A DNA stretch of 64,000 nt, from NCBI GenBank assembly GCA_003154195.1, contig PMCS01000008.1, positions 79,366 through 143,365 on the forward strand. The letters are read 5' to 3'. The DNA is from Candidatus Omnitrophota bacterium (lineage in GTDB: Bacteria > Omnitrophota > Gorgyraeia > Duberdicusellales > 4484-171). Below, piece after piece: positions 11,354 to 61,877 of the stretch (the stretch's first letter is position 1; each line of letters starts with the position of its first letter). Both the position numbers and the translations under genes were made by a program. The notes under the pieces are model-generated. The model did not search any database. It had not been told where the DNA came from and saw only the letters and a list, made by a program, of their open reading frames with translations.

Positions 11354-11491
11354 TCGCCTCCCGAATATCGCAGATAAAAAGAATCCTTCAACTCGGCGAA
11401 GTCTCATTAATAAAAATTGAGCCCGCAAGCTTGCTTCGCCGCTACAACAGCGCAACCGCCTAACGGGCTCAACTATTCTACCTTACTGCCG

Positions 11492-32644: not shown

Positions 32645-33913
32645 CTATATACTTGTGGGGATGGCCGGTATTATCCCTTTTTTCAAATATACCAGGCGTA
32701 TCTTTTCCCGCAAGACCGGCAACTTCCCGCTGAACAGCAAAGCGCCGATAACACAGCACACCCCTCCGATCAAAAGCGTTGCCGGCGCGCCGATTTTAGT
32801 CGCCAAGGTTCCGGCAAACAGGCTGCCGAACGGCATTGTCCCCATAAACGCCATCGTGTAAAAACTCATCACCCGGCCGCGCTTATCGTCGTCGACCACT
32901 GTCTGCAAAATCGTATTGGATGAAGCCATCTGGACCATCATGCTGAACCCCGCGGCCAGGATAAAAAACATTGCCAGCCATAAATTACGGCAGAAAGAAA
33001 CCGCGATAATCGCCAAGCCGAAAGAAGCGGTATTCAGCATAATCAGATTTTCCAAACCAATAACTTTTTTCCGGCCGGCAAGATAAATCGCGCCGGTTAA
33101 CGCCCCCACCCCCGACATCGCCACCAGAAACCCCAACGTCCGGGAATCGCCGTGAAAAACATCGCGCGCAAACACCGGCATCAACACCTGGTAGGGCACG
33201 CCGACCAAACTGGTCATTGCCAGGAGAAAAATAATATATTTTATCGGCGCGAAACCCATCACGTACTTTAAACCGTCTTTTATTTCCGATAGCATACGCT
33301 TATCGGGAATATTTTTCTCTACATAGGTTATTTTCATCGCCAGCAGGGAAACAATCACTGCGATATAGCTCACGGCGTTAAGCAAAAAACAGACCCCTTC
33401 TCCGGCAATGGCGATAATAATCCCGGCAAATGCCGGCCCCAGGAGCTTAGCGATATTAAACATCGACGAATTAAGCGCGATCGCATTGCCCAAATCCTCT
33501 TTCTTCTCGATCATCTCGATGATAAACGACTGGCGTATCGGGATATCGAAACAATTCACTATGCCCAGTAAAGAGCCAAGCGCGATTATCTGCCAGATGA
33601 CGATATGGTTGGTCAGTACCAAGATCGTTAAAACTACCGCCTGAAGCATCGCCAGGCTCTGGGTAATCACCAGCAACCGGTGTTTATTGTGCCGGTCGGC
33701 AATGACCCCGGCAAAAGGAGAAAAAACAAAGGTGGGAATTTGGCTGGCGAAACCGGCCACGCCCAAAAGCAGCGCTGAATTCGTCAGCCGGTACACCAAC
33801 CACCCTACGGCAATAGACTGCATCCAGGTGCCGATAAGGGAAATAACCTGGCCGAAAAAAAACAGGCGGTAATTACGGTAAGATAAACAACGGAAAACAA
33901 GTTTGAAATTCAT
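32645..33913 (-). CDS. MFS transporter (EntS/macrolide-efflux-like)
   Basis: 422 aa with about 12 TM helices and an MFS_3-like N-terminus YRNYRLFFFGQVISLIGTWMQ. Confidence 0.75.
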   Translation of the reverse strand: MNFKLVFRCLSYRNYRLFFFGQVISLIGTWMQSIAVGWLVYRLTNSALLLGVAGFASQIPTFVFSPFAGVIADRHNKHRLLVITQSLAMLQAVVLTILVLTNHIVIWQIIALGSLLGIVNCFDIPIRQSFIIEMIEKKEDLGNAIALNSSMFNIAKLLGPAFAGIIIAIAGEGVCFLLNAVSYIAVIVSLLAMKITYVEKNIPDKRMLSEIKDGLKYVMGFAPIKYIIFLLAMTSLVGVPYQVLMPVFARDVFHGDSRTLGFLVAMSGVGALTGAIYLAGRKKVIGLENLIMLNTASFGLAIIAVSFCRNLWLAMFFILAAGFSMMVQMASSNTILQTVVDDDKRGRVMSFYTMAFMGTMPFGSLFAGTLATKIGAPATLLIGGVCCVIGALLFSGKLPVLREKIRLVYLKKGIIPAIPTSI

Positions 33914-34055
33914 AGTCAGGTATTATAGCAAAAGCGGCGGGTTTGGGTAGGATTAAAAGACAGCGGGCAGGAAGGAGTAGGTAGGAATGCTGAAGGCGTA
34001 ATTATCTAAAATAACACTATACGCTTACCCGAAAGCACACTAGAATAGAAGGCCC

Positions 34056-34595
34056 ATGATGATACATTTCGATAAATTATGCAAGCAGGCTAATTTTATC
34101 GTGATAAAATATTTTAACAACCACGGTTATCAATTCCGGAATAATGCCTGTGAGGAACAAGACTTACGACAGGAAGCCAATATACTTGTATGGCATATCC
34201 TTAAAAGCAAAAATTACCAGGATAAACCCTTTCCTGAATTAAAAAAAATCATAAACTCAGCGGTGGGAAGAAGAATGGAAGATCTAAAAAATAAAGCCCA
34301 TAGATATGCCGAGAAATTCACGGTTATTAACTTAGAAATGCAGGTAAACGACGATGAATATCTTGATAGCCTTAATCCCGAAGACAGCCGTCGGAAAGAA
34401 ATATACCCATTTATTAACGATTTAGGTAAATTAGGTGTTTGTACCCCCCAAGAATGCGACTTGATCCATAAAAGATTCGTCCTAAACAGGACAATGGAAG
34501 AGATTGGGGCCGAATATAAGGTATCCAAGGGGCGAATCAGCCAGATATTTAAAGAAATCCTGGAAAAAGTCAAAAATAAATTAAACAATTCCTAA
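34056..34595 (+). CDS. divergent ECF-like sigma-70 family protein
   Basis: 179 aa. Region-2-like DLRQEANILVWHILKSKNYQDKPFPE and region-4-like HTH LNRTMEEIGAEYKVSKGRISQIFKEILEKV. Markedly AT-rich. Plus strand, among minus-strand neighbours. Confidence 0.5.
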   Translation: MMIHFDKLCKQANFIVIKYFNNHGYQFRNNACEEQDLRQEANILVWHILKSKNYQDKPFPELKKIINSAVGRRMEDLKNKAHRYAEKFTVINLEMQVNDDEYLDSLNPEDSRRKEIYPFINDLGKLGVCTPQECDLIHKRFVLNRTMEEIGAEYKVSKGRISQIFKEILEKVKNKLNNS

Positions 34596-34857
34596 CTTCA
34601 TCCCATTAATGTATGTGAAGAGACAATCCGCAACTTAACCTCCCCATTCCAACTTACCCGTCAAATAATACTCAGATCGGTTTAAATTAAGCTAAAATAC
34701 TAGGTTTTTGTGGTAATCGGCGGGTTGTGAGCTAATATATCGTGTCCCCGGAACTTTGCAAAAATTTCACCACAGAGCGCACAGAGTTCACAGAGATGAT
34801 CAATCAATTCACATTTCAAGGGCTGCCCCTGTTATCCTTCTCCTGTTATCCTTGTTA

Positions 34858-35814
34858 TTAGCGCCTATTTTTTATGTAGCTATTCTTTAATAAAAAATCA
34901 TACGTGGCGTTACAAGCAAAATCATGCCCCTTGGGTGTCCAATGGGACCTGTCTCCGGGATATCGATAAGAAGTTTGCAAAGCAATATATGGTATATTAC
35001 TTTTTATACAGTTTGACTCCATATCCTGATCTTTATCGATAAAACCTATGATAAGCGTAGAATTGTTCGCTTTTAAAAAACTATTCATTTCGCATATAAT
35101 ATTATTGGTTGGATCAGGCACGTGAATTGTTGGGCTGGCAATCTGAAATATTACCTTGAGAACAGCGCTAAATAAATAACTTTTAAAAAAACCAGAATGC
35201 TCATGATAATAATAATTTTGCGACTTGGGAACGGGGATTCCCTTTAAGACGAGCTTGTTGCTCTGAATAACGAAATATGGTTTATAATAACCGTCATACC
35301 TTACGTTGGTTGAATTATCATCGCGGTCATTATCTTCAAACATCAAAAATACTATATCTGGTTTATAACGATAGAAATATTTCTTTAGGATGAGATATTC
35401 TTGGTCGGAGCCATAACCGCTGACCCCAAAATTAAGTATCTCATAATCCGGCAACAATTTCTGTAGTTTTTCAGTGAAACGTTCTTTTTGCTCAACGTCA
35501 TATCCCCAGACAAAAGAATCTCCCAGAAAAATGATTCGCGGCTTTCCTTTTGGTCCATGGTCGCGATCGCGAAAGCCAACTGAATTGTTTTTTACAAAAA
35601 TCTTCCTGCTCCCCGTATAATAATGTTCCTCGCCGCTTATGGGAAACCATCCCAGTTCTTTATCATATTTATAAAGAAGATTTCGCTCATCGTAATGGAG
35701 AAAACCGCTGAGGCAGCGCGTATTCAAAAATAGCCGGCAGCCCCCTTCGCCTAAAAAACAAGCAAAAACAAGTCCCATAACAATACTAATTATCCAAAAT
35801 AATAATTTTTTCAT
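34858..35814 (-). CDS. SGNH/GDSL hydrolase family protein with N-terminal anchor
   Basis: IIFLGDSFVWG (GDS block) and GVSGYGSDQE. AT-rich coding sequence. Confidence 0.6.
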   Translation of the reverse strand: MKKLLFWIISIVMGLVFACFLGEGGCRLFLNTRCLSGFLHYDERNLLYKYDKELGWFPISGEEHYYTGSRKIFVKNNSVGFRDRDHGPKGKPRIIFLGDSFVWGYDVEQKERFTEKLQKLLPDYEILNFGVSGYGSDQEYLILKKYFYRYKPDIVFLMFEDNDRDDNSTNVRYDGYYKPYFVIQSNKLVLKGIPVPKSQNYYYHEHSGFFKSYLFSAVLKVIFQIASPTIHVPDPTNNIICEMNSFLKANNSTLIIGFIDKDQDMESNCIKSNIPYIALQTSYRYPGDRSHWTPKGHDFACNATYDFLLKNSYIKNRR

Positions 35815-42143: not shown

Positions 42144-42530
42144 TTATTTGCCTAAAATATTTTCCACCATCGTTAAAAGCGCCTCGTTGTCAAACGGCTT
42201 GGGGATAAAAAAAATATTTTTGATCGATCCGCAGGAAATCCTTTGTTCATCAATATAATGCCCCGAAAGAATAATGACCGGGATATCGCGGGTGTGCAGG
42301 CTGCCTTTCAACCTGGCGATAACTTCATACCCGTTCATCGTCGGCATATTCATATCGAGAATAAGCAGGTCGGGGACATCGGCGTCGATGAGGTCCAGCG
42401 CCTTCTTGCCGTCGGGAGCGTCCCGCACCTGGGTAAAACCCCTGGCCGTTATGACCTGCCTGAGCAAATCGATGATCTCCGGTTCATCATCGGCGATGAC
42501 TATTTTCTTTGATTGTTTTTTACCGGGCAT
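42144..42530 (-). CDS. stand-alone response-regulator receiver (CheY-like)
   Basis: IVIADDEPEII...LLILDMNMPTMNGYEV...; phospho-acceptor Asp present. Confidence 0.85.
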   Translation of the reverse strand: MPGKKQSKKIVIADDEPEIIDLLRQVITARGFTQVRDAPDGKKALDLIDADVPDLLILDMNMPTMNGYEVIARLKGSLHTRDIPVIILSGHYIDEQRISCGSIKNIFFIPKPFDNEALLTMVENILGK

Positions 42531-43239
42531 AATAGGAACCGAACATCCCTTCCAGGCTGTCCAGCATCTCCTCCAGCGTCATATTTATATAATTGGCGGC
42601 GGTGTCCAGGATAACGAAAGCGTTCACGCCGGCGTCGCGGGTAGTAATGTCAAGAAGCCGGCTGCAAAAACTCTTATCGACTACCCGGACATCTTCGTAA
42701 ATCTTCTTAAGATTCTTTAAATCCCAGTCGGGCTTGCCGCCTCTTCGATGGCAAAAATATTGCGCCGATAGGTACATCGAGATCATCCGGTAGGCCGTCT
42801 CCTCCATACTGGCGAAAGGAAGATGAAAACGCACCATCGGCTGTAATTTGGCCATAATCGGACAGCCGCTGGTAACCATATAAATACCGATCAAAGAACT
42901 CAACCCATACTGCAGGGGAGCATTCTTAAGATATGTCCTTTCATCAGATTGAACCAAGACTTCTATTTCTTCATGCGAAACGGAAGTCTTGAAAAAATCG
43001 ATAACGTCGGCCAGGTTAACGGCAACGGGGCAAAAACGACAGGAATTATCGTCTAAGGGGCAAATCGGGCACTTATGGTATTTCAATTCGGTCCAGGGGT
43101 ATGGCGATTCTTTCCGGGGATTTATATAATTTAAATCCCTAGCGCCCAAAGAAATCTTGAATTCTTTTTTAACTCCGTCCTTAAAAGTAAACCGGTAAAC
43201 GTAGTTGATGGTGTTGGCGTCATTAATATTTCCCGTCAT
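42520..43239 (-). CDS. hypothetical Cys-rich protein co-transcribed with the receiver gene
   Basis: 239 aa with HKCPICPLDDNSCRFCP. No recognisable family. Overlaps the receiver gene by 11 bp. Confidence 0.5.
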   Translation of the reverse strand: MTGNINDANTINYVYRFTFKDGVKKEFKISLGARDLNYINPRKESPYPWTELKYHKCPICPLDDNSCRFCPVAVNLADVIDFFKTSVSHEEIEVLVQSDERTYLKNAPLQYGLSSLIGIYMVTSGCPIMAKLQPMVRFHLPFASMEETAYRMISMYLSAQYFCHRRGGKPDWDLKNLKKIYEDVRVVDKSFCSRLLDITTRDAGVNAFVILDTAANYINMTLEEMLDSLEGMFGSYYAR

Positions 43240-43298
43240 CTAAATTCCCCTTTAAGAGCCGTCGGCAACGTCAAGATGTTGTTCCTTCTTTACTTCTC

Positions 43299-43658
43299 TT
43301 ACATTCTTTCTGCCGTACCTCTCAGCAAAACCAATATCGCCGAATGCGGAGCAACAACATATTTTTTGTTTTCGAATTTTATCTCAACGCCCTGATCCCG
43401 CAAAAAAATACAATAATCACCAGGCCGCGCCTGTAAAGGAAAATACCTGTCCCGCGCTTTAGTCGCCCAGGGCTCCTGGTCCAAAAGGCTGGGGTCGGGC
43501 ACAGGGTACCCCGGGCCGGTCTTCACGATTTTACCCGACTGCACCCGATCTTTATCTTTTACTCCCTGAGGAAGATAAAGCCCGCTGTCGGTCTTACCTT
43601 CACCCTCATCAAGCTCAATCAGCACCTTGTCGCCTACGATTATAAGTTCTTTGTCCAT
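43299..43658 (-). CDS. GroES/Cpn10-like protein with insertion
   Basis: IIVGDKVLIELDEGEGKTDSGLYLP...GDYCIF...KYVVAPHSAILVLL has a GroES-like pattern but with a 15-20 aa insert. No groEL adjacent. Confidence 0.4.
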   Translation of the reverse strand: MDKELIIVGDKVLIELDEGEGKTDSGLYLPQGVKDKDRVQSGKIVKTGPGYPVPDPSLLDQEPWATKARDRYFPLQARPGDYCIFLRDQGVEIKFENKKYVVAPHSAILVLLRGTAERM

Positions 43659-43662
43659 ATTT

Positions 43663-43980
43663 TTAATGAAACTTCGCCAAACACAAGCCCGAAGGGCGCC
43701 GCGCGAGGCGGTAGTCGAATTATCCCGAAGGGACGGGATTTACTTCGTAAAAAAATATCCTCCATCCGCTTCGCGGATGGAGAAAAAATAAATAAAATAT
43801 TTCCCCTGCGTCTTTAATGATACTAAAACATCTTGTTTTAGTCAACCCCGTTAGAAAACTTCGTTTTCTAACGGGGTAAAGATAAATAGTTTAACCGAAA
43901 AAATTTTTCCTGCCTAAGGCAGGGCAAGACCGAGAAAATGCGTAACCGCATTTTCTCGGTTAGCGAAAACTATTTATCTA
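43663..43980. repeat. mosaic of at least seven hairpin repeat modules (candidate structured RNA)
   Basis: Inverted family-3 element (43663-43740); ccatccgcttcgcggatgg (43762-43780); ctaaaacatcttgttttag (43823-43841); ccccgttagaaaacttcgttttctaacgggg (43848-43878); cctgcctaaggcagg (43909-43923); ccgagaaaatgcgtaaccgcattttctcgg (43929-43958); all within an outer palindrome agataaatagttt...aaactatttatct. Confidence 0.75.
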
Positions 43981-45981
43981 TTTATTGATTTTAGCCACCA
44001 ATTCTTCAATTCGGTGCTCCACGCTGCGCTCGATCATCGCCGGTAATAACGCGTGTAATTTTTTCTTAAAATCCGAGTCCAACCATTTAAAATTCATCGC
44101 CTCGTAAGAACCGGATAGCTGGAAATCAAAATCCAGAAAAAACGAATTTTTATCAATAAGACCGAATAACGGCCGGAATTTAGGCGAAGCGGCCAAAATA
44201 TTTTTGGATAAAAGAAGCGAGAGACGGCTGGAAACCAGGCCTTCGGCGTTTACGCTGAGGCTGCCCTTCAATTTCACATCGGGAGAGTTTAATTTTATTT
44301 TTTCGATATTGACCGTCTCATCTTTTATTACAAACTGCGCGATCAGTCGATCGAAATCAATTTTTTTAAGGGGCGGTAAAATGAAGAAATCGGATAACCA
44401 GTTAAAAAAACTAACATCCTTGAGACAGCCGTTTTGTATGAAAAAATTTCCTTTTAAAAAAGGAAATAAATAATTATTATAAACGATACCGGCGTCGCAT
44501 TTGCCGTGAAACCCCTTAAACCGTGGCGACAAATCAACCAATTTACCGGCGTCGGCGCCTTTAACTGCGATATTGCATGATTTTAAAAATAGGCCGCGGT
44601 TAAAATCCAATACCCCTTCTGCCCGCAAAAATCCGTCGTAAAGATAAGAAGAAAATTTAAAATCTCCGGCGCCGATCCTTCCCGCCGCCATAAAATCTTT
44701 TAAAAAAATACGGGAAGTATTCTTGCCGGCTTTATAAGAAATTTTTGCCTCGGGAAAATATAACCGCAACCCCGCGAGCAAATTTACGCCCAGCGATAAA
44801 TCTTTAAATTTCGCGACCAACCTGGTAAAATCGCGGTAATCCGGTTTTTGTAAAAAATCATAATAAACCTTTCCGCTGAATTTACCGGATTTTACGGCCC
44901 CTAAAACACCCAGATCAAATACGTTTAAATTTTTAACTTCCCGACGATATCGCTGGGCCGGATAGGAAGAAAACTTAAAATTTAAGAGGTAAGCTTTATC
45001 CCCGGAAATAACGCCGCGCAGGCCATAGGGTACACCTTGTAAGGAAAAAGTGAAATTCTCCAAAGTAATGGTTTTCCCGTTAATTTTTGCCAAACAATCA
45101 AAATCGAAAATATCAAAAGATTTCCTGCTTGAGAAATAAGGATGCGGCATATTTGTTTCGCCGAAACCGCCTATGGCACCGGACAGTTTATCGGGAAAAT
45201 TGATCGCGGCGATTAGATTGCTCAATGATAAAACCCCGTTAAGCCGTAAGGTATCTTGCTGAAAAGACCCCCAGAACTTCGCATAAAAGTAATTCTTTTT
45301 TAACTCTAGATTCTCGATGTTTACGCCGTTTTTTGTCCGATATCCGGAAAAACTAAATTCTAAAAAATTATCTTCCGCCGGCGCCTTGTTCCCGGCGCCG
45401 AAATTAATAAATTTGCCCAGCCTGATCCGGCCATAACTCGATATAAGATTATTACGCGATTTTTCAAAAACAACGTCAGCCCCTATTTTCAAAAAATTAT
45501 TCTCCCCTGATATAAATAAAGCGTTCCTCAGGACAACGCTAAAATCTTCCGCTTCCTCCGGGGTATAATCGAATAGACGCCCCTGAATATTTTCGCGGGA
45601 AAAGCTCCCGTAATTGTTGACAGTAATCACTGGTTTATCGATATAAATCCTGGTAATTTTAAAATCTCCTCCTGAGATAAACTGGAACAAAGGGAAAAAG
45701 ATTTTAACTTTTCGGGCGCGGTTAAAAAAGAAGCTTCTTCCCCGTCCGGAAGGAGGCTTAAAGGAAATATCGTTGATGATAAAACAATGGGGAGGAAAAT
45801 ACAAAATATTACGAAAAGTTACCGGCTGGCCTAAATACGCGGATATATCGCGCTCAATCTTAGTTTTCTGGATATTTACCGCGACATTAAAAACCAATGA
45901 ACCAAAAACTATCGATCCCGCTACAATCAAACTGCCCCGCAATAACCGGGAAACAGTTCTACGATAAGTATTCTTTGACAT
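43978..45981 (-). CDS. AsmA-like / DUF748-type envelope biogenesis protein (putative)
   Basis: 667 aa with an N-terminal TM helix then a long beta-rich domain. Confidence 0.35.
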   Translation of the reverse strand: MSKNTYRRTVSRLLRGSLIVAGSIVFGSLVFNVAVNIQKTKIERDISAYLGQPVTFRNILYFPPHCFIINDISFKPPSGRGRSFFFNRARKVKIFFPLFQFISGGDFKITRIYIDKPVITVNNYGSFSRENIQGRLFDYTPEEAEDFSVVLRNALFISGENNFLKIGADVVFEKSRNNLISSYGRIRLGKFINFGAGNKAPAEDNFLEFSFSGYRTKNGVNIENLELKKNYFYAKFWGSFQQDTLRLNGVLSLSNLIAAINFPDKLSGAIGGFGETNMPHPYFSSRKSFDIFDFDCLAKINGKTITLENFTFSLQGVPYGLRGVISGDKAYLLNFKFSSYPAQRYRREVKNLNVFDLGVLGAVKSGKFSGKVYYDFLQKPDYRDFTRLVAKFKDLSLGVNLLAGLRLYFPEAKISYKAGKNTSRIFLKDFMAAGRIGAGDFKFSSYLYDGFLRAEGVLDFNRGLFLKSCNIAVKGADAGKLVDLSPRFKGFHGKCDAGIVYNNYLFPFLKGNFFIQNGCLKDVSFFNWLSDFFILPPLKKIDFDRLIAQFVIKDETVNIEKIKLNSPDVKLKGSLSVNAEGLVSSRLSLLLSKNILAASPKFRPLFGLIDKNSFFLDFDFQLSGSYEAMNFKWLDSDFKKKLHALLPAMIERSVEHRIEELVAKINK

Positions 45982-46027: not shown

Positions 46028-46558
46028 TTAGAAAGTGATTTTTGCGCCAAGCTTGTCATCGATAAAAATTTCTACCCGGTCGATAAAATACCTGGCCTTA
46101 TATTTTTTGGAAAGAGCCGATTTATAACGATATTCTTTAAAATCTTTAAAAATAAGAAAGTTCGTTTTAGCCTTAACAATCCGGGTTTCTAAATCTTTAG
46201 CTAAATTATCATTTTTTTGCCGCTCGGCGATTTGCGCTAAATAAAAAAAGGCGAAAACCACGGCGCCGGACCCCGGATACTTAGAAATTAATTCGTTAAA
46301 CGCCGCCGCGGCCGGCCCTGTGTCATTAACCAAAAAATAATACTCCCCCACCGCGAATAAAGCGTCAGGAAAAAATTTAGAATCGGGATAATTCCTGACA
46401 ATCAGGTCAAAATAGGAAAAAGCGAAATCAACGCTTTTCGCCCGGCTGCATTCAATCCCTTTTGAATATAAATCTTTGTCTTCGCCGGCAAAAACCGGAT
46501 TAAAAAACAACGCGTTAAAAAATAGAGTGATTAAAATTATCAGGGTGTATTTTTTCAT
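46028..46558 (-). CDS. secreted TPR-like protein (YbgF/BamD-like)
   Basis: Signal peptide, then two ...NYPDS..FPDALFAVGEYYF / ...KYPGSGAVVFAFFYLAQ repeats. Confidence 0.5.
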   Translation of the reverse strand: MKKYTLIILITLFFNALFFNPVFAGEDKDLYSKGIECSRAKSVDFAFSYFDLIVRNYPDSKFFPDALFAVGEYYFLVNDTGPAAAAFNELISKYPGSGAVVFAFFYLAQIAERQKNDNLAKDLETRIVKAKTNFLIFKDFKEYRYKSALSKKYKARYFIDRVEIFIDDKLGAKITF

Positions 46559-46885
46559 AAGTTTTAGCGATAATTATTTTATACCCGGCGAGACTCATTG
46601 CTTAGGGCAATGGGACTAAGCCTCAAACTCATTGCCCCCTTCGGGGCAATGAAACTTGGCCCGCCAAATACGGCGGGAGTTAGTTTCATTGATTCGGCTA
46701 TCCCCCTACGGGGATAGTTCAACTAAGCCCGGGGCACCAGGCAAGTTTCATTACGGCGAAGTCTCAAGCTCATTACCTGAAATCTGAAGTCGCGCTCTAA
46801 GCGCTCCCACGATTCCAGGTAATTCGACTACCGCCTCATTCTGCGCCCTTCGGGCTTGTATTCGGCGAAGTCTCATTAGATATCG
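46559..46885. repeat. tandem array of short hairpins ending in a family-3 element
   Basis: cattgcttagggcaatg; cattgccccttcggggcaatg; cccgccaaatacggcggg; ctatccccctacggggatag; gcgctctaagcgc. Then ggtaattcgactaccgcctc...cttcgggcttg...ggcgaagtctcattaga (46818-46882). Confidence 0.75.
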
Positions 46886-47589
46886 TCGCTGGCAAGATTT
46901 TTTTCGACGAATTCGATGATCGTATTCTGCTGTTCATTACTATTATTATAAAACTCAAGCCCCATCCCGGGAAATTCCAGAGGCTGGATGCTTTCATCGG
47001 TGACCCAGACGACTTTGGCCTCGGCATCAATAACCGGAGGTTTATGCGCGAAATGCATCCGGATGGAAAGCAGGTCGCCAGCCGGAAAAACTTTCGTGCC
47101 GATCATAAAAACTCCAATCGCGCTTAGATTTATAATATTACCCTTGAAAAAATCCTGGGAGGAAAATTTAAGCTTGTACTCAATAACGCTGTCTATTTCC
47201 AGCCTCTTGAATTTTCTTCGCAACTTTTTTTTGAGAGACCCGGGCGATTCTTTATCTTCACGAAGGCTGGAAAATGCCTCGTCTTCGCTATTATAGTATT
47301 CGAGTACCCGGTCAAGGCCGACTACAGAAAATAATCTTACGACATGGCCCGGTAAGTTATAAAGCTTCATTTTTCCGCCGTGGTTGAGCACATTCTTGTA
47401 AGCAACGGCAATCAGGGAGATACCGACATAATCCACTAAGTTGATACCGGCAAAATTACACAAAATGTCTTTGGATTTATTGGCGACCGACCAGCCCACG
47501 GCCTCGACAAACTCCGAAGCATTAATATCGATATTCCCCTCGGGGACAATAATAACCGCGCCTTCTCTTTCGCTTACGGTGATTTTCAT
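46876..47589 (-). CDS. STAS (anti-sigma-factor antagonist) plus PilZ fusion protein
   Basis: N-terminal SpoIIAA-like STAS (MKITVSEREGAVIIVPEGNID...YNLPGHVVRLFSVVGLDRVLEYY). C-terminal PilZ with RRKFKR (RxxxR) and NLSAIGVF (D/NxSxxG). The stop codon lies inside the family-3 element tail TCATTAGA. Confidence 0.7.
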   Translation of the reverse strand: MKITVSEREGAVIIVPEGNIDINASEFVEAVGWSVANKSKDILCNFAGINLVDYVGISLIAVAYKNVLNHGGKMKLYNLPGHVVRLFSVVGLDRVLEYYNSEDEAFSSLREDKESPGSLKKKLRRKFKRLEIDSVIEYKLKFSSQDFFKGNIINLSAIGVFMIGTKVFPAGDLLSIRMHFAHKPPVIDAEAKVVWVTDESIQPLEFPGMGLEFYNNSNEQQNTIIEFVEKNLASDDI

Positions 47590-48005
47590 TTCATTAAAAA
47601 AGAAAGAAAAAATAAAAGAGCAACGATTCCTACGCCGATAATTACCGCATCGCCCAGATTTATCTTCTTTTTGCTTCCGCTAACCACCCTGTCGGCGGCT
47701 GCCCCCTTAAGCGCAGAGTTTTCCGGCCCGGAAACCGCCGAACCTTGGGGAAGAATATCTGCCCGGGCGATTTCTTTATCCTTGGCCGGAGCGCTTACCG
47801 CCGCCGGGACAAACCCGTCATTGACCGCGCCGCTTTCTACGGCGGGGCTACTTTGCGCGTCAGCAAATTCATCCATCAACTGCCCGAGAAATTTACGGCA
47901 ATCGTTGCACACACAAAGATGCTCCTCAACAGCAGCCTGCTCTTCTTTAGGGGCAGTATGTTTTATATACGCCGGGATAATCTTTTTTATGCCTTCACAA
48001 TCCAT
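47586..48005 (-). CDS. zinc-finger (ZAS, HxxxCxxC) anti-sigma factor with C-terminal TM helix
   Basis: MDCEG...EEHLCVCNDCRKF, a linker, then the helix VIIGVGIVALLFFLSFLM. Overlaps the STAS-PilZ gene by 4 bp (ATGA). Confidence 0.65.
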   Translation of the reverse strand: MDCEGIKKIIPAYIKHTAPKEEQAAVEEHLCVCNDCRKFLGQLMDEFADAQSSPAVESGAVNDGFVPAAVSAPAKDKEIARADILPQGSAVSGPENSALKGAAADRVVSGSKKKINLGDAVIIGVGIVALLFFLSFLMK

Positions 48006-48021
48006 GGGGAAGCCTCAGAAA

Positions 48022-48103
48022 CCCTTCGCTTCGCTCAGGGTTAATTCGACTACGGCCTCACTCTACGCCCTTCGGGCTTGATTTCGGCCAAGTCTCATTA
48101 AAT
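48022..48103. repeat. family-3 element (GGTAATTCGACTACCGCCTC...GGCGAAGTCTCATTAAAT)
   Basis: cccttcgcttcgctcagggttaattcgactacggcctcactctacgcccttcgggcttgatttcggccaagtctcattaaat. Confidence 0.8.
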
Positions 48104-48170
48104 AAAAAAGGGGTAGAATTCAGTTTATTTCTGAAATTCCACCCCTCCTTTCCGCTTATTGAGCGGTAAA

Positions 48171-48335
48171 TCAGCTTTTTTTCTTTTTGGCGTTGAGCCT
48201 TCTTTCCTGAGAAGGCTTAGTGTAATACTGCCGGTCTTTGCACTCTTTTAAAATACCCTCGCGCTTACACTGCATCTTGAACACCCGCAATGCTTTTTCA
48301 AAATCTTCTCTTTTTTCGATTTTAACCTCGGCCAT
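48171..48335 (-). CDS. rpsU: 30S ribosomal protein S21
   Basis: Translates to MAEVKIEKREDFEKALRVFKMQCKREGILKECKDRQYYTKPSQERRLNAKKKKS (54 aa). AAGGAGGG Shine-Dalgarno 5 nt upstream. Absent from the ORF track (below 60 aa). Confidence 0.8.
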   Translation of the reverse strand: MAEVKIEKREDFEKALRVFKMQCKREGILKECKDRQYYTKPSQERRLNAKKKKS

Positions 48336-57926: not shown

Positions 57927-60900
57927 CTATGGTTGAGAACCCGGCGCTTTCGGCGTGCCGGTTAAACCATTAATATCCACGGGCTTCCTGAATAAAAAAT
58001 TACCCGTCGTAACTTTCTGCACGCTGCCGTCTTGTTTGTTTAATTGCACATAATACTTCTTCCCACCTTTTTTAACGCCGACACTCCACGATAAATCGGC
58101 ATCTTTAACCGAGATAACTTCTCCGCCGATCGCCAACCCCGCAAAATGCGCGGCGCCGTCATGGGTAAGCCTCTCTTTAATAAATTCTTGCTTTTGGGAA
58201 TCTACTTTTATTATCAGATAACCGAGAGACGAAAGAAATTGGAATTCCCATCCATCATGCCAGGGGTTTGTCTCTTCCCCCGTTATGACCGTTATTTTAT
58301 TATTGGCTAAAATCTTTTGAGCTTCCTGATAACAATAATCTTTAAGCAAACGCAGGGTTAACTTAACCGAAGCATCTTCTTCTATCTCGGCAAGCGCGCT
58401 CCATTTTTTTGAAGCAAGGCTGATTATCCATCGGCCGTTCTTAAAATCTTTCCGCACCGGTAAAAAATATTTTTCTCCGCTCTCCTTCGCCGCCGCGGCG
58501 ACAGCTAAATCATCCGCCTCCGGCGCCGAAAGGTACTTCTTCAGAGTTACCTTTTCCGATTCATCTTCAACAACCAGAATCATCCCTTTAGGGTAATAAA
58601 AATTCCACATATTATTTTGCTGCCAGATTGCCAGAGGTTCTTCGCTCGCGTTTTCTTTCGCGATTTGCTTAACCCTTGTTTCGCTGATGGTTTTCTTCTG
58701 GTTCACTACTTTCCCCGATTTTTTATTCACCTTAAAAGTATAATTATAATCGGCAGTATTATAATTCAGGATATATAAAAAACCGCGCACTTCGATATTT
58801 TCTTCTTTTAAATCGAGATCGGGAAATATTTTTTTTATTTCCGTTATCGCCTCCTGCTTGGAAAAGGCGGGAAATTCCGCTTTTAATTCGCGCCGCAGGA
58901 TATCGAAATAAAAGTCGATAATCTTTTTGTTATAATCAATGGCGATTTTCCAGGCAACCGCCACATTCTTTTCAATAAGATTAACCGCTACCTCCTTAGG
59001 ATGAATATTCATCTCCCTGCCCACGTGGCTTTTAACGTCGATCTCGGAAAGCCTGTTCGCCGTAGGCAGAAGAACCGCTACCTTTTCCCAGAGCTGAGCC
59101 GAACGACGATTATCTTCGCGAGCCAAAACAATCTCCACCAGCTTGTCCTGCGCTTCTTTTTCTAATTTAAGCGGAGCGTCGAAGCGGCAGAATTTGCCCT
59201 CATCTTTCACCCGGTCAACTACATTGCCGAGAGAATCCCGTTTCAGGGTGTTAATCTTCCAGTCAGCCCGGTGCACGCGCGTTATTAAAAGCTGTACGTT
59301 TCTAAACCGCGCCTCATCGGCGGGTATCCCTTCTTTTGCCAACTCCGCAAGGCAGAGTTTTATGACTTCTTCCGGCTCAATGTCAAGAATAAACGGCTCG
59401 CCCCTGGCAATTCCGAAATTAAAACCTTCAAAGATTGTTTCGGGGAGTAAAACCGTCGTTCTCGCTTGCTCGCCTTCCTGGCCGGTTGCCTCTTTTCCGC
59501 TCAGGTAAAAAGTTTTATAATTGCCCTGCACCTGGCGGCTCATGACCATGGAAATAAGAGACGGCGGTAAAATACGGTGGAAACTGGCAACCCTTCTCGT
59601 CTTTACCAAAATTACCTCTCCGGAACGCAGTTTAATCAAAAATTGCTCGTTATCAAGAATATCCAAAAATGTGGCCAGTTTATCGAATTTTACTCCTGAC
59701 TGAAAACCGTTCTCTAAAATCTTCTCTTTTTCTTTATTGGTGGAAAGTTTGCCGATAACCCAGGTATCGCAATCATTGATCCCTTTAAAATCGATATCTT
59801 CTAAATACTGGGTAGCTAATACGCAGCAAACGCCGGAATTCTTGCTTTCTCTTAATAATAATTCGATCGCCGGCCTGGCTACAAAATGAAACGGATCGGT
59901 AGATAAAAATGACCGCTTTGAGCCGATCTCATCGATATAAAATATAAGGCGCGGCCGATCGCTGGGGCCCTGTTTTTTCATCCAGCAATAAATCGAATAA
60001 GCAACCTGGGAAATAACCAGGTAACGGTCTTCAAAAGTTTCCAGCTCGGAAAGATTAATGATGTTGATAGGTGTTTTATCGAACCTTTGGGAAAATAAAT
60101 CAATATCCAAGGGGACGCCGTCATACCAAATACGCTCGGCGCCGTTCAAGTGTTCGCGTAATTTATCCGCTAAGAGTTTGCGCACGGGCTCCGGTATGTA
60201 TTCATCGACCGGCGCGTCCCCCACCTTCGCCAACGGCAGGTGATCGATCAAATCAATAAAGCGTGCCAAACCTTTAATACCATGAATCTCAATACCATTC
60301 AACCAGCTATAAAGAATCAATTCCGATAAAAAATTCTTCTCCCGGTCTTTCTGATTTATTTCTTCGTTAACGTACAGACGGCCGATAAGAGCGCTTATCA
60401 GAAAATCGATTGCCGTAAAAATATTTTCCCGCTCTTTATCGTAAAGCTCTTTTATATTTTCGGGAGCCGGAGGCAGTAAAGAAATCGCCAAAGGTATGCC
60501 TGATTTAGAACGCGGGGTAAAGACAGCGACCTCAACCGTATCCTTTAATCGTTTAACATAATCCTCGGTCAAGCCAAATCTTCCCAGGTGCCTCATTTGG
60601 TTATCGAATTCCTGTCTTGCCCGGTCTCGCCAGTCTTCACTTTGTCCGTATTCTTCGGAAAAAAATTCGAAATATTCCGGCGAGGTTTTATCGAATAAAA
60701 GGCACAGAGAGGAAAGGTCGCCTTTAAGGTCAATGATAATCGAGGGCACTTCCTTTTGCGCTGCTTCTTCGATAATGCTTTTGGCAAAAACAGTCTTACC
60801 ACAAGCCGGTGACCCGCAGATAAAAACATGGCCCATGAGATTCCCCATGGGCAGGAAAAATTTTGAAAGCAGCCCTCCGCCGCTTTCCAGCGAAATGCGA

Positions 60901-61013
60901 TTACCCAAAAATAAGCTTTCTAAACGTAAATCGTCCGACATATTTTCAATGAGGCTTATCCCGCCGCATTTTGGCGGGATGCAGCCGAATTGGCCCGGCA
61001 CTAATTTTGTCAC
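57927..61013 (-). CDS. large P-loop NTPase, DUF87 / HerA-VirB4-like core with about 550-aa C-terminal region of unknown function
   Basis: Walker A ICGSPACGKT, Walker-B-like LIFYIDEIG and an ATQ sensor motif (CCVLATQYLEDID). 1028 aa. The ORF-track start is a GTG; possible internal ATG starts at 60941 and 60848. Confidence 0.5.
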   Translation of the reverse strand: MTKLVPGQFGCIPPKCGGISLIENMSDDLRLESLFLGNRISLESGGGLLSKFFLPMGNLMGHVFICGSPACGKTVFAKSIIEEAAQKEVPSIIIDLKGDLSSLCLLFDKTSPEYFEFFSEEYGQSEDWRDRARQEFDNQMRHLGRFGLTEDYVKRLKDTVEVAVFTPRSKSGIPLAISLLPPAPENIKELYDKERENIFTAIDFLISALIGRLYVNEEINQKDREKNFLSELILYSWLNGIEIHGIKGLARFIDLIDHLPLAKVGDAPVDEYIPEPVRKLLADKLREHLNGAERIWYDGVPLDIDLFSQRFDKTPINIINLSELETFEDRYLVISQVAYSIYCWMKKQGPSDRPRLIFYIDEIGSKRSFLSTDPFHFVARPAIELLLRESKNSGVCCVLATQYLEDIDFKGINDCDTWVIGKLSTNKEKEKILENGFQSGVKFDKLATFLDILDNEQFLIKLRSGEVILVKTRRVASFHRILPPSLISMVMSRQVQGNYKTFYLSGKEATGQEGEQARTTVLLPETIFEGFNFGIARGEPFILDIEPEEVIKLCLAELAKEGIPADEARFRNVQLLITRVHRADWKINTLKRDSLGNVVDRVKDEGKFCRFDAPLKLEKEAQDKLVEIVLAREDNRRSAQLWEKVAVLLPTANRLSEIDVKSHVGREMNIHPKEVAVNLIEKNVAVAWKIAIDYNKKIIDFYFDILRRELKAEFPAFSKQEAITEIKKIFPDLDLKEENIEVRGFLYILNYNTADYNYTFKVNKKSGKVVNQKKTISETRVKQIAKENASEEPLAIWQQNNMWNFYYPKGMILVVEDESEKVTLKKYLSAPEADDLAVAAAAKESGEKYFLPVRKDFKNGRWIISLASKKWSALAEIEEDASVKLTLRLLKDYCYQEAQKILANNKITVITGEETNPWHDGWEFQFLSSLGYLIIKVDSQKQEFIKERLTHDGAAHFAGLAIGGEVISVKDADLSWSVGVKKGGKKYYVQLNKQDGSVQKVTTGNFLFRKPVDINGLTGTPKAPGSQP

Positions 61014-61039: not shown

Positions 61040-61298
61040 CGCAAAAAATACTGCCATCCGCTTGCGCGGATGGGAAAAAGGTAGATTACAGAAAAACAAC
61101 CAAGAAACAATCACCAAACAATATCTAATCTCATAGTGGTTATTTTAGCACTTTCGGTATTATAGACAAGATTATAAATCTTAACGCTTAAGTTTATTTT
61201 TTGCGCCGCGAAAAAAGACCCTTCGCTTCGCTCAGGGTAATTCGACTACCGCCTCGTCCGGCGCGCTTCGCGCTTGGACCCGGCGAAGTCTCATTAAA
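61040..61298. repeat. repeat cluster: half AT hairpin, CCATCCGC hairpin, AT hairpin and a family-3 element
   Basis: gccatccgcttgcgcggatggg (61053-61074); ttttttgcgccgcgaaaaaa (61197-61216); cccttcgcttcgctcagggtaattcgactaccgcctcgtccggcgcgcttcgcgcttggacccggcgaagtctcattaaat (61217-61298). Confidence 0.8.
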
Positions 61299-61877
61299 TT
61301 TTTTTAAAAGTTTTTTAAAAACCCTGCCGGGAAATCCCACGACGTTATCGTAGTCTCCCTTAATAGATTTTATAAACTGGCCCCTTAAATCCTGAATCGC
61401 GTAGCTGCCGGCTTTATCGCGGAAATCGCCGCGGCCGAGATAATCGGTTATTTCGTCAGCCTTAAGCTTTTTAAAATTAACTTCCGTCTTCGCATAATCC
61501 GTGACTAATTTTTTATCGCGCCGCCGGCACAGGGCAAGCCCGGTGATAACTTCGTGAGTATTCCCCGATAAAATCGAAAGCATCTTTTTCCCGTCCCGGT
61601 AATTCCGCGGCTTGCCTAAAATCTTATTCTTAAAAACAACAATGGTATCGGCGCCGGCCACAATCAATCGGGGAAATTTTTCAGCTACCGCTTGCGCCTT
61701 TAATGTCGCTGCCAAAACCGCAAATGAAACCGGGTTTTTTTCTTTAATCGCACCTTCATCGATATCGGCAGGGTAAATAATAAAGTCTCTGACGATTTTT
61801 TTAAGGAGATTTATCCGGCGCGGCGAGCGGGAGGCAAGGACAATTTTAATATTTTTATAATTCTTGCGGGGTTTCAT
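61194..61877 (-). CDS. maf: Maf-like nucleoside triphosphate pyrophosphatase with repeat-encoded C-terminal extension
   Basis: IVLASRSPRR...GADTIVV...GKP...; Maf fold. The last 33 or so residues (ETSPGPSAKRAGRGGSRITLSEAKGLFSRRKK) are translated from the family-3 element plus an AT hairpin. Confidence 0.85.
   Translation of the reverse strand: MKPRKNYKNIKIVLASRSPRRINLLKKIVRDFIIYPADIDEGAIKEKNPVSFAVLAATLKAQAVAEKFPRLIVAGADTIVVFKNKILGKPRNYRDGKKMLSILSGNTHEVITGLALCRRRDKKLVTDYAKTEVNFKKLKADEITDYLGRGDFRDKAGSYAIQDLRGQFIKSIKGDYDNVVGFPGRVFKKLLKKFNETSPGPSAKRAGRGGSRITLSEAKGLFSRRKK

What the first reader, a model, noticed from the sequence alone, without database searches (positions are those of the whole stretch)
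46876..48005. ZAS anti-sigma factor translationally coupled to a STAS-PilZ fusion, with no adjacent sigma factor
The upstream gene encodes a zinc-finger (HLCVCNDC, HxxxCxxC) membrane-anchored anti-sigma-like protein. Its stop overlaps (ATGA) the start of a protein that fuses an anti-sigma-antagonist STAS domain to a PilZ domain with intact RxxxR and D/NxSxxG c-di-GMP-binding motifs. This architecture would let c-di-GMP feed directly into a partner-switching module. No ECF sigma gene is adjacent. The only sigma-like gene in the window is the divergent AT-rich one at 34056. rpsU lies immediately upstream.
Basis: partly seen in the sequence, partly recalled or inferred. Interest (0 to 1): 0.6.

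Follow-up and report, generated by a model that had tools for sequence, protein, structure and literature searches.

The report
Zinc anti-sigma-like protein with STAS-PilZ partner
An uncultured Omnitrophota bacterium carries a membrane-tethered zinc-finger anti-sigma-like gene next to a gene that fuses an anti-sigma-antagonist (STAS) domain to a c-di-GMP-binding PilZ domain; the pair is kept together across the phylum and has not been studied, and it may let c-di-GMP act on an anti-sigma factor without phosphorylation.

Summary
Both genes lie on the minus strand. The 139-aa zf-HC2 protein (47586-48005) overlaps by ATGA the start of a 237-aa STAS-PilZ fusion (46876-47589). rpsU lies upstream behind a strong terminator, and no sigma gene is adjacent.

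Comparison with 47 Omnitrophota species adds four points.
- The zf-HC2 gene precedes STAS-PilZ in all 44 loci where upstream sequence exists.
- The ancestral unit is a three-gene operon, zf-HC2, uppP, STAS-PilZ (33 of 44 loci). uppP has dropped out at least four times, and the other two genes stayed together each time.
- The STAS domain has an invariant Tyr where SpoIIAA has its phospho-serine. No kinase or phosphatase is nearby, so canonical phospho-regulated partner switching is excluded. The PilZ c-di-GMP motifs are invariant.
- The zinc-finger protein is always tail-anchored, with no periplasmic domain.

My best reading, from inference only, is a phosphorylation-independent module. c-di-GMP would bind the STAS-PilZ linker and barrel and gate the STAS domain's interaction with the membrane-tethered anti-sigma-like protein. 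That protein's sigma target is unlinked and unknown. A rival reading centres on the envelope and UppP. I found no publication on this fusion. I rate it a new variant of a known kind, of moderate interest.

The parts
47586..48005 (-). Gene for a 139-aa tail-anchored zf-HC2 (ZAS-like) protein
   Evidence: ORF. Pfam zf-HC2 E 7e-8 and weak NCBIfam anti-sigma subfamily hits. An orthologue lies upstream of STAS-PilZ in 44 of 44 evaluable Omnitrophota loci. All 45 N-termini match zf-HC2.
47862..48005 (-). Conserved N-terminal zinc-finger domain (residues 1-48). Invariant residues: C3, Y13, H16, E27, H29, L30, C31, C33, C36, R37
   Evidence: Alignment A4 of 45 orthologues. The C-x25-H-x3-C-x2-C spacing matches the ZAS pattern. 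Weak, individually non-significant profile matches to ChrR, RslA (3hug_B) and RsiW cover the same region.
47658..47861 (-). Low-complexity Ala/Pro/Ser-rich linker (residues ~49-116), predicted disordered
   Evidence: AF2 pLDDT below 50 for residues 53-113. Total protein length varies from 90 to 455 aa between species, and the variation lies in this linker.
47592..47657 (-). C-terminal transmembrane helix (residues ~117-138), with one residue after it, which makes the protein tail-anchored
   Evidence: Hydropathy scan: all 45 orthologues have one TM segment with only 1-8 residues after it. AF2 predicts a helix at 117-138 with pLDDT about 90.
47586..47589 (-). ATGA stop/start overlap between the two genes
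   Evidence: Read directly from the sequence. No Shine-Dalgarno-like sequence is visible in the T-rich stretch just upstream. The same overlap occurs only in L020 among the 11 directly adjacent loci.
46876..47589 (-). Gene for the 237-aa STAS-PilZ fusion protein
   Evidence: Pfam and NCBIfam. More than 335 homologous clusters, where named all Candidatus Omnitrophota/Omnitrophica, all carrying PF01740 plus PF07238. AF2 model pLDDT 82.5.
47254..47589 (-). STAS domain (residues 1-112), SpoIIAA/RsbV-like
   Evidence: Foldseek: SpoIIAA 1th8_B TM 0.84, rmsd 1.7 Å; also RsbV and TM1442. Profile against PDB: SpoIIAA E 2e-13.
47428..47430 (-). Codon for Tyr54, the position of the phosphorylatable Ser58 of SpoIIAA
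   Evidence: The HMM alignment places 'vDYvG' against 'MDSSG' of SpoIIAA. D53, Y54, G56 and S58 are invariant in 32 homologues. Distant STAS-PilZ fusions keep Ser at this position.
47203..47220 (-). Interdomain linker segment carrying the RxxxR c-di-GMP motif (R124-R125-K-F-K-R129)
   Evidence: R124, R125, F127 and R129 are invariant. The linker 115-128 is the only internal low-confidence stretch of the model.
46879..47202 (-). PilZ beta-barrel plus C-terminal helix (residues 130-237), including N154-x-S156-x-x-G159 (window 47113-47130)
   Evidence: Pfam PilZ E 1.5e-13. Foldseek matches to c-di-GMP-bound Alg44, MapZ, BcsA and YcgR PilZ domains. N154, S156 and G159 are invariant.
48171..48335 (-). 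rpsU (ribosomal protein S21), a conserved upstream neighbour
   Evidence: Pfam and TIGR00030. rpsU was detected upstream of the ZAS gene (gaps 6-412 nt) in 19 related loci.
48101..48151 (-). Intrinsic-terminator-like hairpin (about 20 bp) plus U-tract directly after rpsU
   Evidence: RNA fold of 48006-48170(-): -65 kcal/mol, z -5.7. The simple scan missed it, probably because of how it counts stems and loops.
48042..48104 (-). Copy of a ~60-nt dispersed structured repeat, between the rpsU terminator and the ZAS start
46820..46882 (-). Second copy of the repeat (89% identical). It begins at the STAS-PilZ stop codon, so the two copies flank the gene pair as direct repeats.

Best explanation
The two genes encode a conserved, phosphorylation-independent regulatory pair specific to Omnitrophota.

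The first protein is held at the cytoplasmic face of the membrane by a C-terminal tail anchor. It presents a ~48-residue Cys/His zinc domain of the ZAS anti-sigma type. The second protein is a soluble c-di-GMP receptor: a SpoIIAA-like STAS domain joined to a canonical PilZ barrel, with the RxxxR motif in the flexible linker between them.

Proposed mechanism:
1. c-di-GMP binds the linker and barrel, as in YcgR and PlzD-type proteins.
2. This fixes the orientation of the STAS domain and so switches its ability to bind the zinc domain.
3. STAS binding competes with, or enables, the zinc domain's hold on a sigma factor that is encoded elsewhere.

The c-di-GMP signal would replace the Ser phosphorylation that gates classical STAS antagonists. 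Ancestrally the pair is co-translated with UppP (undecaprenyl-diphosphatase), which suggests the output concerns envelope or lipid-carrier homeostasis.

Shown: the domains, the motifs, the Tyr substitution, the tail anchor and the conserved linkage. Inferred: c-di-GMP binding, the STAS-ZAS contact, the existence and identity of the sigma factor, and the direction of the switch.
For: Domain identity: Pfam, NCBIfam, PDB profile and Foldseek results.

c-di-GMP motifs: invariant in 32 diverse homologues.

Linkage:
- A zf-HC2 gene lies upstream on the same strand in 44 of 44 evaluable species-level loci.
- Intergenic gaps are mostly -4 to +13 nt.
- uppP has left the operon in at least 4 separate clades, and the ZAS and STAS-PilZ genes remained adjacent each time. 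This argues that selection acts on the pair itself.

Loss of phospho-control:
- Tyr54 is invariant at the SpoIIAA Ser58 position.
- No HATPase_c or PP2C gene is in the window or among conserved neighbours.

Comparative support:
- Distant STAS-PilZ fusions (20-25% identity) keep the Ser. One of them directly follows an RsbW-like HATPase_c_2 gene. The slot upstream of a STAS-PilZ gene can therefore hold an anti-sigma of either class.
- ZAS-domain pairwise distances track STAS distances (r 0.56-0.62) better than PilZ distances (r 0.39-0.41). This is weak evidence.

Precedents:
- A STAS protein binds a non-kinase anti-sigma: PA3347 and FlgM (PMC8256260).
- c-di-GMP controls an anti-sigma directly: RsiG and sigma-WhiG (PMC7005675).
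Against: - No sigma gene is adjacent in the window or is a conserved neighbour in 47 loci. This is atypical for ZAS anti-sigmas.
- Only ~48 residues of the zinc protein are conserved, which is shorter than a full four-helix anti-sigma domain. Its AF2 model is low confidence, and its PDB similarity to ChrR, RslA and RsiW is not significant (E 0.13-0.8).
- In most species STAS-PilZ is translationally coupled to UppP, not to the zinc protein.
- ZAS distances correlate with UppP distances as well as with STAS distances.
- Four of five distant STAS-PilZ contexts show no anti-sigma neighbour.
- No interaction or ligand-binding data exist, and no complex prediction could be run.
Confidence: 0.4

Rival explanations
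1. An envelope-centred membrane complex with no sigma factor. The zinc-finger protein, UppP and STAS-PilZ would form or regulate a membrane assembly. c-di-GMP, through STAS-PilZ, would tune undecaprenyl-phosphate recycling or a polysaccharide or cell-wall pathway that uses it. The zf-HC2 domain would serve only as a zinc or redox-sensitive docking site that recruits STAS-PilZ to the membrane.
For: - The three-gene operon ZAS-uppP-STAS-PilZ is ancestral and present in 33 of 44 loci. The uppP stop overlaps the STAS-PilZ start by 4 nt in 24 of those 33.
- No sigma factor is linked anywhere.
- STAS proteins can regulate non-sigma targets (review PMC8256260). My own knowledge adds MlaB and the STAS domains of SLC26 transporters.
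- PilZ domains classically regulate polysaccharide synthases such as BcsA and Alg44, which are structural neighbours of this one.
- A distant STAS-PilZ-like gene also lies next to a bacA gene, in convergent orientation (L055).
- STAS-UppP distance correlation is 0.68, and the partial correlation given ZAS is 0.47.
Against: - uppP has been lost from the operon at least four times, including in this window, without breaking the ZAS/STAS-PilZ pair.
- uppP is not in this 64-kb window at all.
- The STAS domain is closest in sequence and fold to true anti-sigma antagonists: SpoIIAA, RsbV and RsfB.
- The zinc domain matches the anti-sigma zf-HC2 family in all 45 orthologues.
Confidence: 0.25
2. The two proteins do not interact, and the linkage is inherited synteny. 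The zinc protein would be an ordinary redox or zinc-sensing anti-sigma for a distant ECF sigma. STAS-PilZ would be a c-di-GMP receptor with an unrelated partner elsewhere in the genome.
For: - The region is a block of conserved housekeeping synteny. rpsU is upstream, and PPDK, an RpoD-like sigma and a phosphoribosyltransferase lie upstream in 8 loci.
- All genes of a genome share phylogeny, so the distance correlations are not specific.
- The conserved C3/H29/C33/C36 set resembles the RsrA-type thiol-zinc switch, which needs no protein antagonist (my knowledge).
Against: - The linkage holds in 44 of 44 loci across proteins only 45-62% identical, while the flanking genes vary widely.
- Overlapping or near-overlapping stops and starts persist after four independent removals of the intervening gene.
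Confidence: 0.15
3. Reverse wiring. The zinc domain would be the sensor, of redox state or zinc, and STAS-PilZ the regulated output. The tail-anchored protein would sequester STAS-PilZ at the membrane until oxidation or zinc loss releases it. Free STAS-PilZ with c-di-GMP would then act on a soluble target.
For: - Six invariant Cys/His residues (C3, H16, H29, C31, C33, C36) exceed the four needed for one zinc site.
- There is no extracytoplasmic sensor domain.
- The long, variable, disordered tether fits a sequestration role.
Against: No evidence distinguishes this wiring from the best explanation. No candidate soluble target is conserved nearby.
Confidence: 0.1

Closest known systems
SpoIIAA/SpoIIAB and RsbV/RsbW partner-switching modules (Bacillus)
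   Same: The STAS domain is the closest sequence and structural relative of SpoIIAA and RsbV. Its gene lies immediately downstream of an anti-sigma-type gene.
   Different: - The phospho-serine is replaced by an invariant Tyr.
- The partner is a zf-HC2 protein, not a GHKL kinase.
- No PP2C phosphatase and no linked sigma gene are present.
- A C-terminal PilZ domain is fused to the STAS domain.
ZAS anti-sigma factors (RsrA, ChrR, RslA, RsiW)
   Same: It has the zf-HC2 motif C/H-x(23-26)-H-x3-C-x2-C at the N-terminus. It is membrane-anchored, as RsiW and RslA are.
   Different: - The conserved domain is only ~48 residues.
- It has extra invariant H16 and C31.
- It is tail-anchored with no extracytoplasmic domain.
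- It is not encoded next to an ECF sigma.
- It is instead linked to uppP and a STAS-PilZ gene.
RsiG-sigma-WhiG (Streptomyces), c-di-GMP-armed anti-sigma (PMC7005675, PMC8325347)
   Same: c-di-GMP would control sigma availability post-translationally through an anti-sigma system.
   Different: RsiG binds c-di-GMP itself through helical ExxxSxxRxxxQxxxD motifs. Here the nucleotide would bind a PilZ domain on a separate antagonist protein.
HsbA (PA3347)/HsbR/FlgM/HsbD and SiaC-SiaD in Pseudomonas (PMC8256260, PMC5085249, PMC8457831)
   Same: A STAS-type partner-switch protein binds a non-kinase anti-sigma (FlgM) and is connected to c-di-GMP signalling.
   Different: In Pseudomonas the switch is phospho-regulated and acts upstream of c-di-GMP synthesis. 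Here c-di-GMP would be the input, and phosphorylation is impossible at the canonical site.
Two-domain PilZ receptors with the RxxxR motif in the interdomain linker (YcgR, PlzD/VCA0042, MotI)
   Same: The RxxxR motif lies in a flexible linker before a canonical PilZ barrel. Domain re-orientation on ligand binding is the established mechanism for this class (10.1101/814665).
   Different: The N-terminal domain is a STAS domain rather than a PilZN or xPilZ domain. This fusion is not listed in the PilZ census.
Distant STAS-PilZ fusions from other metagenomic lineages (P0167, P0170, P0202, P0217 and others)
   Same: They have the same two-domain order and about the same length, ~240 aa.
   Different: - They share only 20-25% identity with the window protein.
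- They retain Ser at the phospho-site.
- One is paired with an RsbW-like HATPase_c_2 gene (L053).
- None was seen with a zf-HC2 gene.

Membership tests
ZAS (zinc-binding anti-sigma factor, Pfam zf-HC2) | H-x3-C-x2-C motif with a fourth Cys/His ligand about 23-26 residues upstream | tested here: met
   C3, H29, C33 and C36 are invariant in 45 orthologues.
ZAS (zinc-binding anti-sigma factor, Pfam zf-HC2) | Profile match above the curated threshold | tested here: met
   zf-HC2 scores 32.9 bits against a cutoff of 22.2. All 45 orthologues match. NCBIfam anti-sigma models score below their cutoffs.
ZAS (zinc-binding anti-sigma factor, Pfam zf-HC2) | Complete helical anti-sigma domain fold | tested here: inconclusive
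   The AF2 model of the N-terminus reaches only pLDDT 55-71. Conserved sequence ends at about residue 48. PDB profile matches to ChrR, RslA and RsiW have E 0.13-0.8.
ZAS (zinc-binding anti-sigma factor, Pfam zf-HC2) | Cognate (usually ECF) sigma gene adjacent or co-transcribed | tested here: not met
   None is adjacent in the window. None is among the conserved neighbours of 47 loci.
ZAS (zinc-binding anti-sigma factor, Pfam zf-HC2) | Binds zinc and sequesters a sigma factor | not testable with these tools
   This needs biochemistry or multimer modelling.
STAS anti-sigma-factor antagonist (SpoIIAA/RsbV type) | STAS fold and profile match | tested here: met
   Pfam STAS E 4e-13. PDB profile match to SpoIIAA E 2e-13. 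Foldseek TM 0.84.
STAS anti-sigma-factor antagonist (SpoIIAA/RsbV type) | Phosphorylatable Ser/Thr at the N-terminus of helix alpha-2 | tested here: not met
   Tyr54 is invariant and aligns to SpoIIAA Ser58.
STAS anti-sigma-factor antagonist (SpoIIAA/RsbV type) | Partner GHKL anti-sigma kinase and PP2C phosphatase | tested here: not met
   No HATPase_c or SpoIIE/PP2C gene is in the window or among conserved neighbours. The rest of the genome was not available.
PilZ c-di-GMP receptor (canonical) | PilZ beta-barrel fold and profile match | tested here: met
   Pfam PilZ E 1.5e-13. Foldseek matches to Alg44, MapZ, BcsA and YcgR PilZ domains.
PilZ c-di-GMP receptor (canonical) | RxxxR and [D/N]xSxxG motifs | tested here: met
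   R125/R129 and N154/S156/G159 are invariant in 32 homologues.
PilZ c-di-GMP receptor (canonical) | Binds c-di-GMP | not testable with these tools
   This needs ITC, DRaCALA or MST.
Partner-switching system | The antagonist binds the anti-sigma in a signal-dependent way and releases a sigma | not testable with these tools
   Only genomic linkage (44 of 44 loci) and weak distance correlation are available.

The most novel reading that the evidence does not exclude
A previously unrecognised signalling logic. c-di-GMP, read by a PilZ domain fused to a non-phosphorylatable STAS domain, would directly gate a tail-anchored zinc anti-sigma factor. This would be a second-messenger-driven partner switch that replaces the kinase/phosphatase pair. 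It would be conserved across the phylum Omnitrophota and ancestrally wired to undecaprenyl-phosphate recycling.
Probability: 0.3. Interest if true: 0.75.

Novelty: new variant of a known kind. Interest (0 to 1): 0.55.

Why it matters
Known links between c-di-GMP and sigma factors are few: RsiG-WhiG, and the Pseudomonas switches that act upstream of c-di-GMP synthesis.

A STAS-PilZ antagonist would show that the partner-switching scaffold can be re-wired so that a nucleotide second messenger replaces Ser phosphorylation. It would also give the first functional handle on a gene pair conserved throughout Omnitrophota, a large and mostly uncultured phylum. The ancestral coupling to uppP would tie c-di-GMP to lipid-carrier supply for envelope and polysaccharide synthesis.

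The proteins are small and soluble, except for the tail anchor. The hypothesis can therefore be tested in vitro without cultivating the organism.

Tried and rejected
- Profile search with the 50-residue ZAS alignment against the 5.8-billion-protein set returned nothing at E up to 0.1. The full-length query found only 6 proteins. I could therefore not trace ZAS relatives outside Omnitrophota to find a cognate sigma by homology.
- The AF2 model of the ZAS protein had too low a confidence (pLDDT 54) for a fold search.
Single-sequence sensitivity is limited. The clustering-plus-Pfam census gave the same negative answer.
- The mirror-tree distance correlation was inconclusive. ZAS correlates with STAS more than with PilZ, but equally with UppP.
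- Rfam scan of the flanking intergenic regions gave only sub-threshold chance-level hits.
- Canonical phospho-dependent partner switching is rejected, because of Tyr54 and the absence of a kinase and phosphatase.
- I considered the RpoD/RpoS-like 273-aa sigma that lies 1-4 kb upstream in 8 loci as the target. It is absent from the window and is not consistently linked, so nothing supports it.
- I considered FecIR-like cell-surface signalling, because a TonB-dependent receptor and an ABC transporter lie upstream in 19 loci. The ZAS protein has no periplasmic domain and no FecR homology, and these genes are absent here. Rejected.
- A complex (multimer) prediction could not be run with the tools and quotas available.
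Full report
**1. What is in the window**

Both genes are on the minus strand.

The first gene is 47586-48005 and encodes 139 aa.
- The first 37 residues match Pfam zf-HC2 at E 7e-8, above the gathering score.
- They also give weak matches to NCBIfam anti-sigma subfamily models.
- The sequence reads C3 ... H29-L-C31-V-C33-N-D-C36.
- An Ala/Pro/Ser-rich stretch follows. AlphaFold leaves it disordered (pLDDT below 50 for residues 53-113).
- A confident C-terminal helix spans 117-138. It is the only hydrophobic segment and has one residue after it.

The TGA stop of this gene overlaps the ATG of the second gene, giving ATGA at 47586-47589.

The second gene is 46876-47589 and encodes 237 aa.
- It matches STAS (residues 3-105, E 4e-13) and PilZ (residues 124-229, E 1.5e-13).
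- rpsU lies upstream at 48171-48335.
- A 20-bp hairpin plus U-tract follows rpsU. The pair is therefore probably transcribed on its own.

Pfam scans of essentially all ORFs of 70 aa or more in the window gave these results.
- The content is housekeeping.
- There is no GHKL anti-sigma kinase, no PP2C phosphatase and no GGDEF or EAL enzyme.
- The only sigma-like gene is the near-threshold ECF-like ORF at 34056-34595(+). It lies in a 35-39% GC patch.

**2. The STAS-PilZ protein**

- A database search returned more than 335 clusters at 90% identity. They are about 239 aa long, 50-62% identical to the window protein, and all carry both Pfam domains. Where a source names the organism it is Candidatus Omnitrophota/Omnitrophica. 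The names given are generic ("anti-sigma factor antagonist", "PilZ domain-containing protein").
- In an alignment of 32 members, R124/R125/F127/R129 and N154/S156/G159 are invariant. These are the RxxxR and [D/N]xSxxG c-di-GMP motifs. D53-Y54-x-G56-x-S58 in the STAS domain is also invariant.
- A profile search of the PDB aligns "vDYvG" to "MDSSG" of SpoIIAA. The invariant Tyr54 therefore occupies the position of the phosphorylated Ser58.
- The AlphaFold model has mean pLDDT 82.5. It shows two well-folded domains joined by a low-confidence linker (115-128) that carries the RxxxR motif.
- Foldseek places the N-terminal domain on SpoIIAA (TM 0.84, rmsd 1.7 Å), RsbV, TM1442 and RsfB. It places the C-terminal domain on the c-di-GMP-bound PilZ domains of Alg44, MapZ, BcsA, YcgR and VCA0042.

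**3. Conserved context**

A scan of one genome per GTDB species gave 47 loci. Most are titled Omnitrophota MAGs. Some carry other labels (uncultured Planctomycetia, one Methanosarcinales, one unnamed bacterium), which I take to be mislabelling or contamination.

The zinc-finger protein:
- A same-strand ORF with H-x3-C-x2-C at residue 29 lies upstream of STAS-PilZ in 44 loci. The other three cannot be evaluated. One has an assembly gap directly upstream and two start at a contig end.
- All 45 N-termini, including the window's, match zf-HC2.
- M1, C3, Y13, H16, E27, H29, L30, C31, C33, C36 and R37 are invariant.
- Every orthologue is tail-anchored. Each has one terminal TM helix with 1-8 residues after it. 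Total length runs from 90 to 455 aa because the disordered linker varies.

The operon:
- In 33 of 44 loci an undecaprenyl-diphosphatase gene (uppP/bacA; TIGR00753) sits between the two genes.
- The uppP stop overlaps the STAS-PilZ start by 4 nt in 24 of these 33 loci. The ZAS-to-uppP gap is usually 13 nt or less.
- Eleven loci, and the window, lack uppP at this position. Only L020 and the window have the ATGA overlap between the ZAS and STAS-PilZ genes.
- On a neighbour-joining tree of STAS-PilZ proteins the uppP-containing arrangement covers the whole tree, including the deepest branches.
- The direct arrangement appears in at least four separate clades. The window's nearest relative, L005, still has uppP.
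- So uppP has left repeatedly, and the ZAS/STAS-PilZ linkage survived each time.

Other neighbours:
- rpsU was detected upstream of the ZAS gene in 19 loci, at gaps of 6-412 nt.
- Clustering all neighbour ORFs and annotating the recurrent clusters showed no sigma factor, kinase or phosphatase. It showed a TonB-dependent receptor and ABC transporter upstream, and small unannotated proteins, YqeY and a CBS protein downstream.
- An RpoD/RpoS-like 273-aa sigma lies 1-4 kb upstream in 8 loci. It is absent from the window.

**4. Wider distribution of the fusion**

- An exhaustive profile search of 1.84 billion representatives found 30 clusters at E up to 1e-30. This is the Omnitrophota family together with fragments of it.
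- It also found a tail of full-length proteins of about 240 aa at 20-25% identity.
- These distant fusions keep a Ser at the phospho-site, as S-S-G or D-S-x-G.
- One directly follows an RsbW-like HATPase_c_2 gene (L053).
- Four other contexts show no anti-sigma neighbour. One of them has a convergent bacA gene.
- So the STAS-PilZ fusion exists in a canonical, apparently phospho-regulated form elsewhere. The Omnitrophota family is a Tyr variant paired with a ZAS-type protein.

**5. Literature**

- Full-text searches for STAS with PilZ, and for PilZ with anti-sigma-antagonist terms, found no paper describing the fusion.
- The PilZ domain census lists fusions with PilZN, HlyD, REC, GGDEF, EAL, HD-GYP, MCP and CheC domains, but not with STAS (10.1101/814665).
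- Three precedents are relevant:
  - The STAS protein PA3347 binds the non-kinase anti-sigma FlgM (PMC8256260).
  - c-di-GMP arms the anti-sigma RsiG (PMC7005675).
  - The HsbA/HsbD and SiaC/SiaD partner switches act upstream of c-di-GMP synthesis (PMC5085249, PMC8457831).

**6. Interpretation**

Shown:
- A canonical PilZ domain with invariant ligand motifs.
- A SpoIIAA-like STAS domain that cannot be phosphorylated at the classical site.
- A tail-anchored zf-HC2 protein with no extracytoplasmic sensor.
- Phylum-wide linkage of the two genes that is robust to rearrangement.

Inferred:
- The two proteins interact.
- c-di-GMP binding at the interdomain linker re-orients the STAS domain, as established for YcgR and PlzD-type receptors. 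This replaces phosphorylation as the gate.
- The zinc domain holds a sigma factor that is encoded elsewhere.

The main rival reading is that the trio with UppP forms an envelope or lipid-carrier regulatory unit with no sigma factor. The ancestral uppP coupling supports it. The repeated loss of uppP, and the absence of uppP from this window, count against it. Two other possibilities cannot be excluded: pure synteny, and reverse wiring in which the zinc domain is the sensor that sequesters STAS-PilZ.

**7. Verdict**

The finding is real, and its domain-level interpretation is right. It is not a canonical partner-switching system, and it is not rare within its phylum. As far as the accessible literature shows, it is uncharacterised. 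It is best classed as a new variant of known kinds (STAS antagonists, ZAS anti-sigmas, PilZ receptors). The interest is moderate. The mechanism is attractive and testable in vitro, but at present it rests only on comparative genomics.

Noticed in passing
window 46820-46882, 48042-48104, ~11340-11410, ~61225-61300 (all minus strand) and ~43660-43735 (plus strand): A dispersed ~60-nt repeat, TAATGAGACTTCGCC...GCCCGAAGGGC...GGCGGTAGTCGAATTA, has five copies in 64 kb (0.02 expected by chance for its core pattern). It folds into a nested hairpin, and the copies differ by compensatory changes (CTTCGCC/GGCGG against CTTGGCC/GGCCG; CCCGAAGGG against CGCGAAGCGCG). It usually starts at or just after a stop codon. 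Two copies flank the ZAS/STAS-PilZ pair as direct repeats. It may be a REP/MITE-like element or a 3'-UTR RNA motif.
   Followed up: partly
window 46559-46875 (minus strand): The 320-nt intergenic region downstream of STAS-PilZ is packed with about seven GC-rich hairpins that share AATGA(G/A)nCT-like flanks. Its MFE is -131 kcal/mol, z -5.5 against shuffles. No Rfam family reaches its gathering score.
   Followed up: partly
window 33900-35700: A low-GC patch (33-40% against a 45% window mean) holds a near-threshold ECF-like sigma gene (34056-34595) and a GDSL lipase. The sigma gene is one of only four plus-strand ORFs of 70 aa or more among 56. The patch may have been acquired horizontally. No anti-sigma gene lies beside it.
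   Followed up: partly
whole window: Coding-strand bias is extreme. 52 of 56 non-overlapping ORFs of 70 aa or more are on the minus strand, across the full 64 kb.
   Followed up: no
window 57927-61013(-) and 43978-45981(-): Two large ORFs (1028 aa and 667 aa) have no Pfam or NCBIfam match. The 667-aa ORF lies two genes downstream of STAS-PilZ, after a YbgF/CpoB-like TPR lipoprotein (46028-46558).
   Followed up: no
window 42144-43658(-): A cluster of three genes: a 119-aa Cpn10-like protein that matches only the first half of the GroES profile, a DUF6901 protein, and a stand-alone response-regulator receiver.
   Followed up: no
window 9637-10734(-): A fusion of a Sua5/YciO/YrdC domain with a low-molecular-weight phosphotyrosine phosphatase domain.
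   Followed up: no
L053:925-2098: In an unrelated metagenomic lineage, a distant STAS-PilZ fusion that keeps the phospho-serine directly follows an RsbW-like HATPase_c_2 gene. This looks like a canonical kinase-type partner switch that also carries a PilZ domain, and it too appears undescribed.
   Followed up: partly
L010, L011, L014, L017, L024, L025, L035, L037 (for example L011:2829-7609): A conserved block of PPDK, a 273-aa RpoD/RpoS-like sigma lacking region 1.1, and a phosphoribosyltransferase lies 1-4 kb upstream of the ZAS gene; rpsU was also detected in between in 5 of these 8 loci. This recalls the rpsU-dnaG-rpoD neighbourhood of other bacteria. The block is absent from this window.
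   Followed up: partly
L001:11558-12422 and L013:8676-9053: Additional stand-alone PilZ genes lie close to the STAS-PilZ gene in related Omnitrophota genomes. This indicates a broader c-di-GMP receptor repertoire in the phylum.
   Followed up: no
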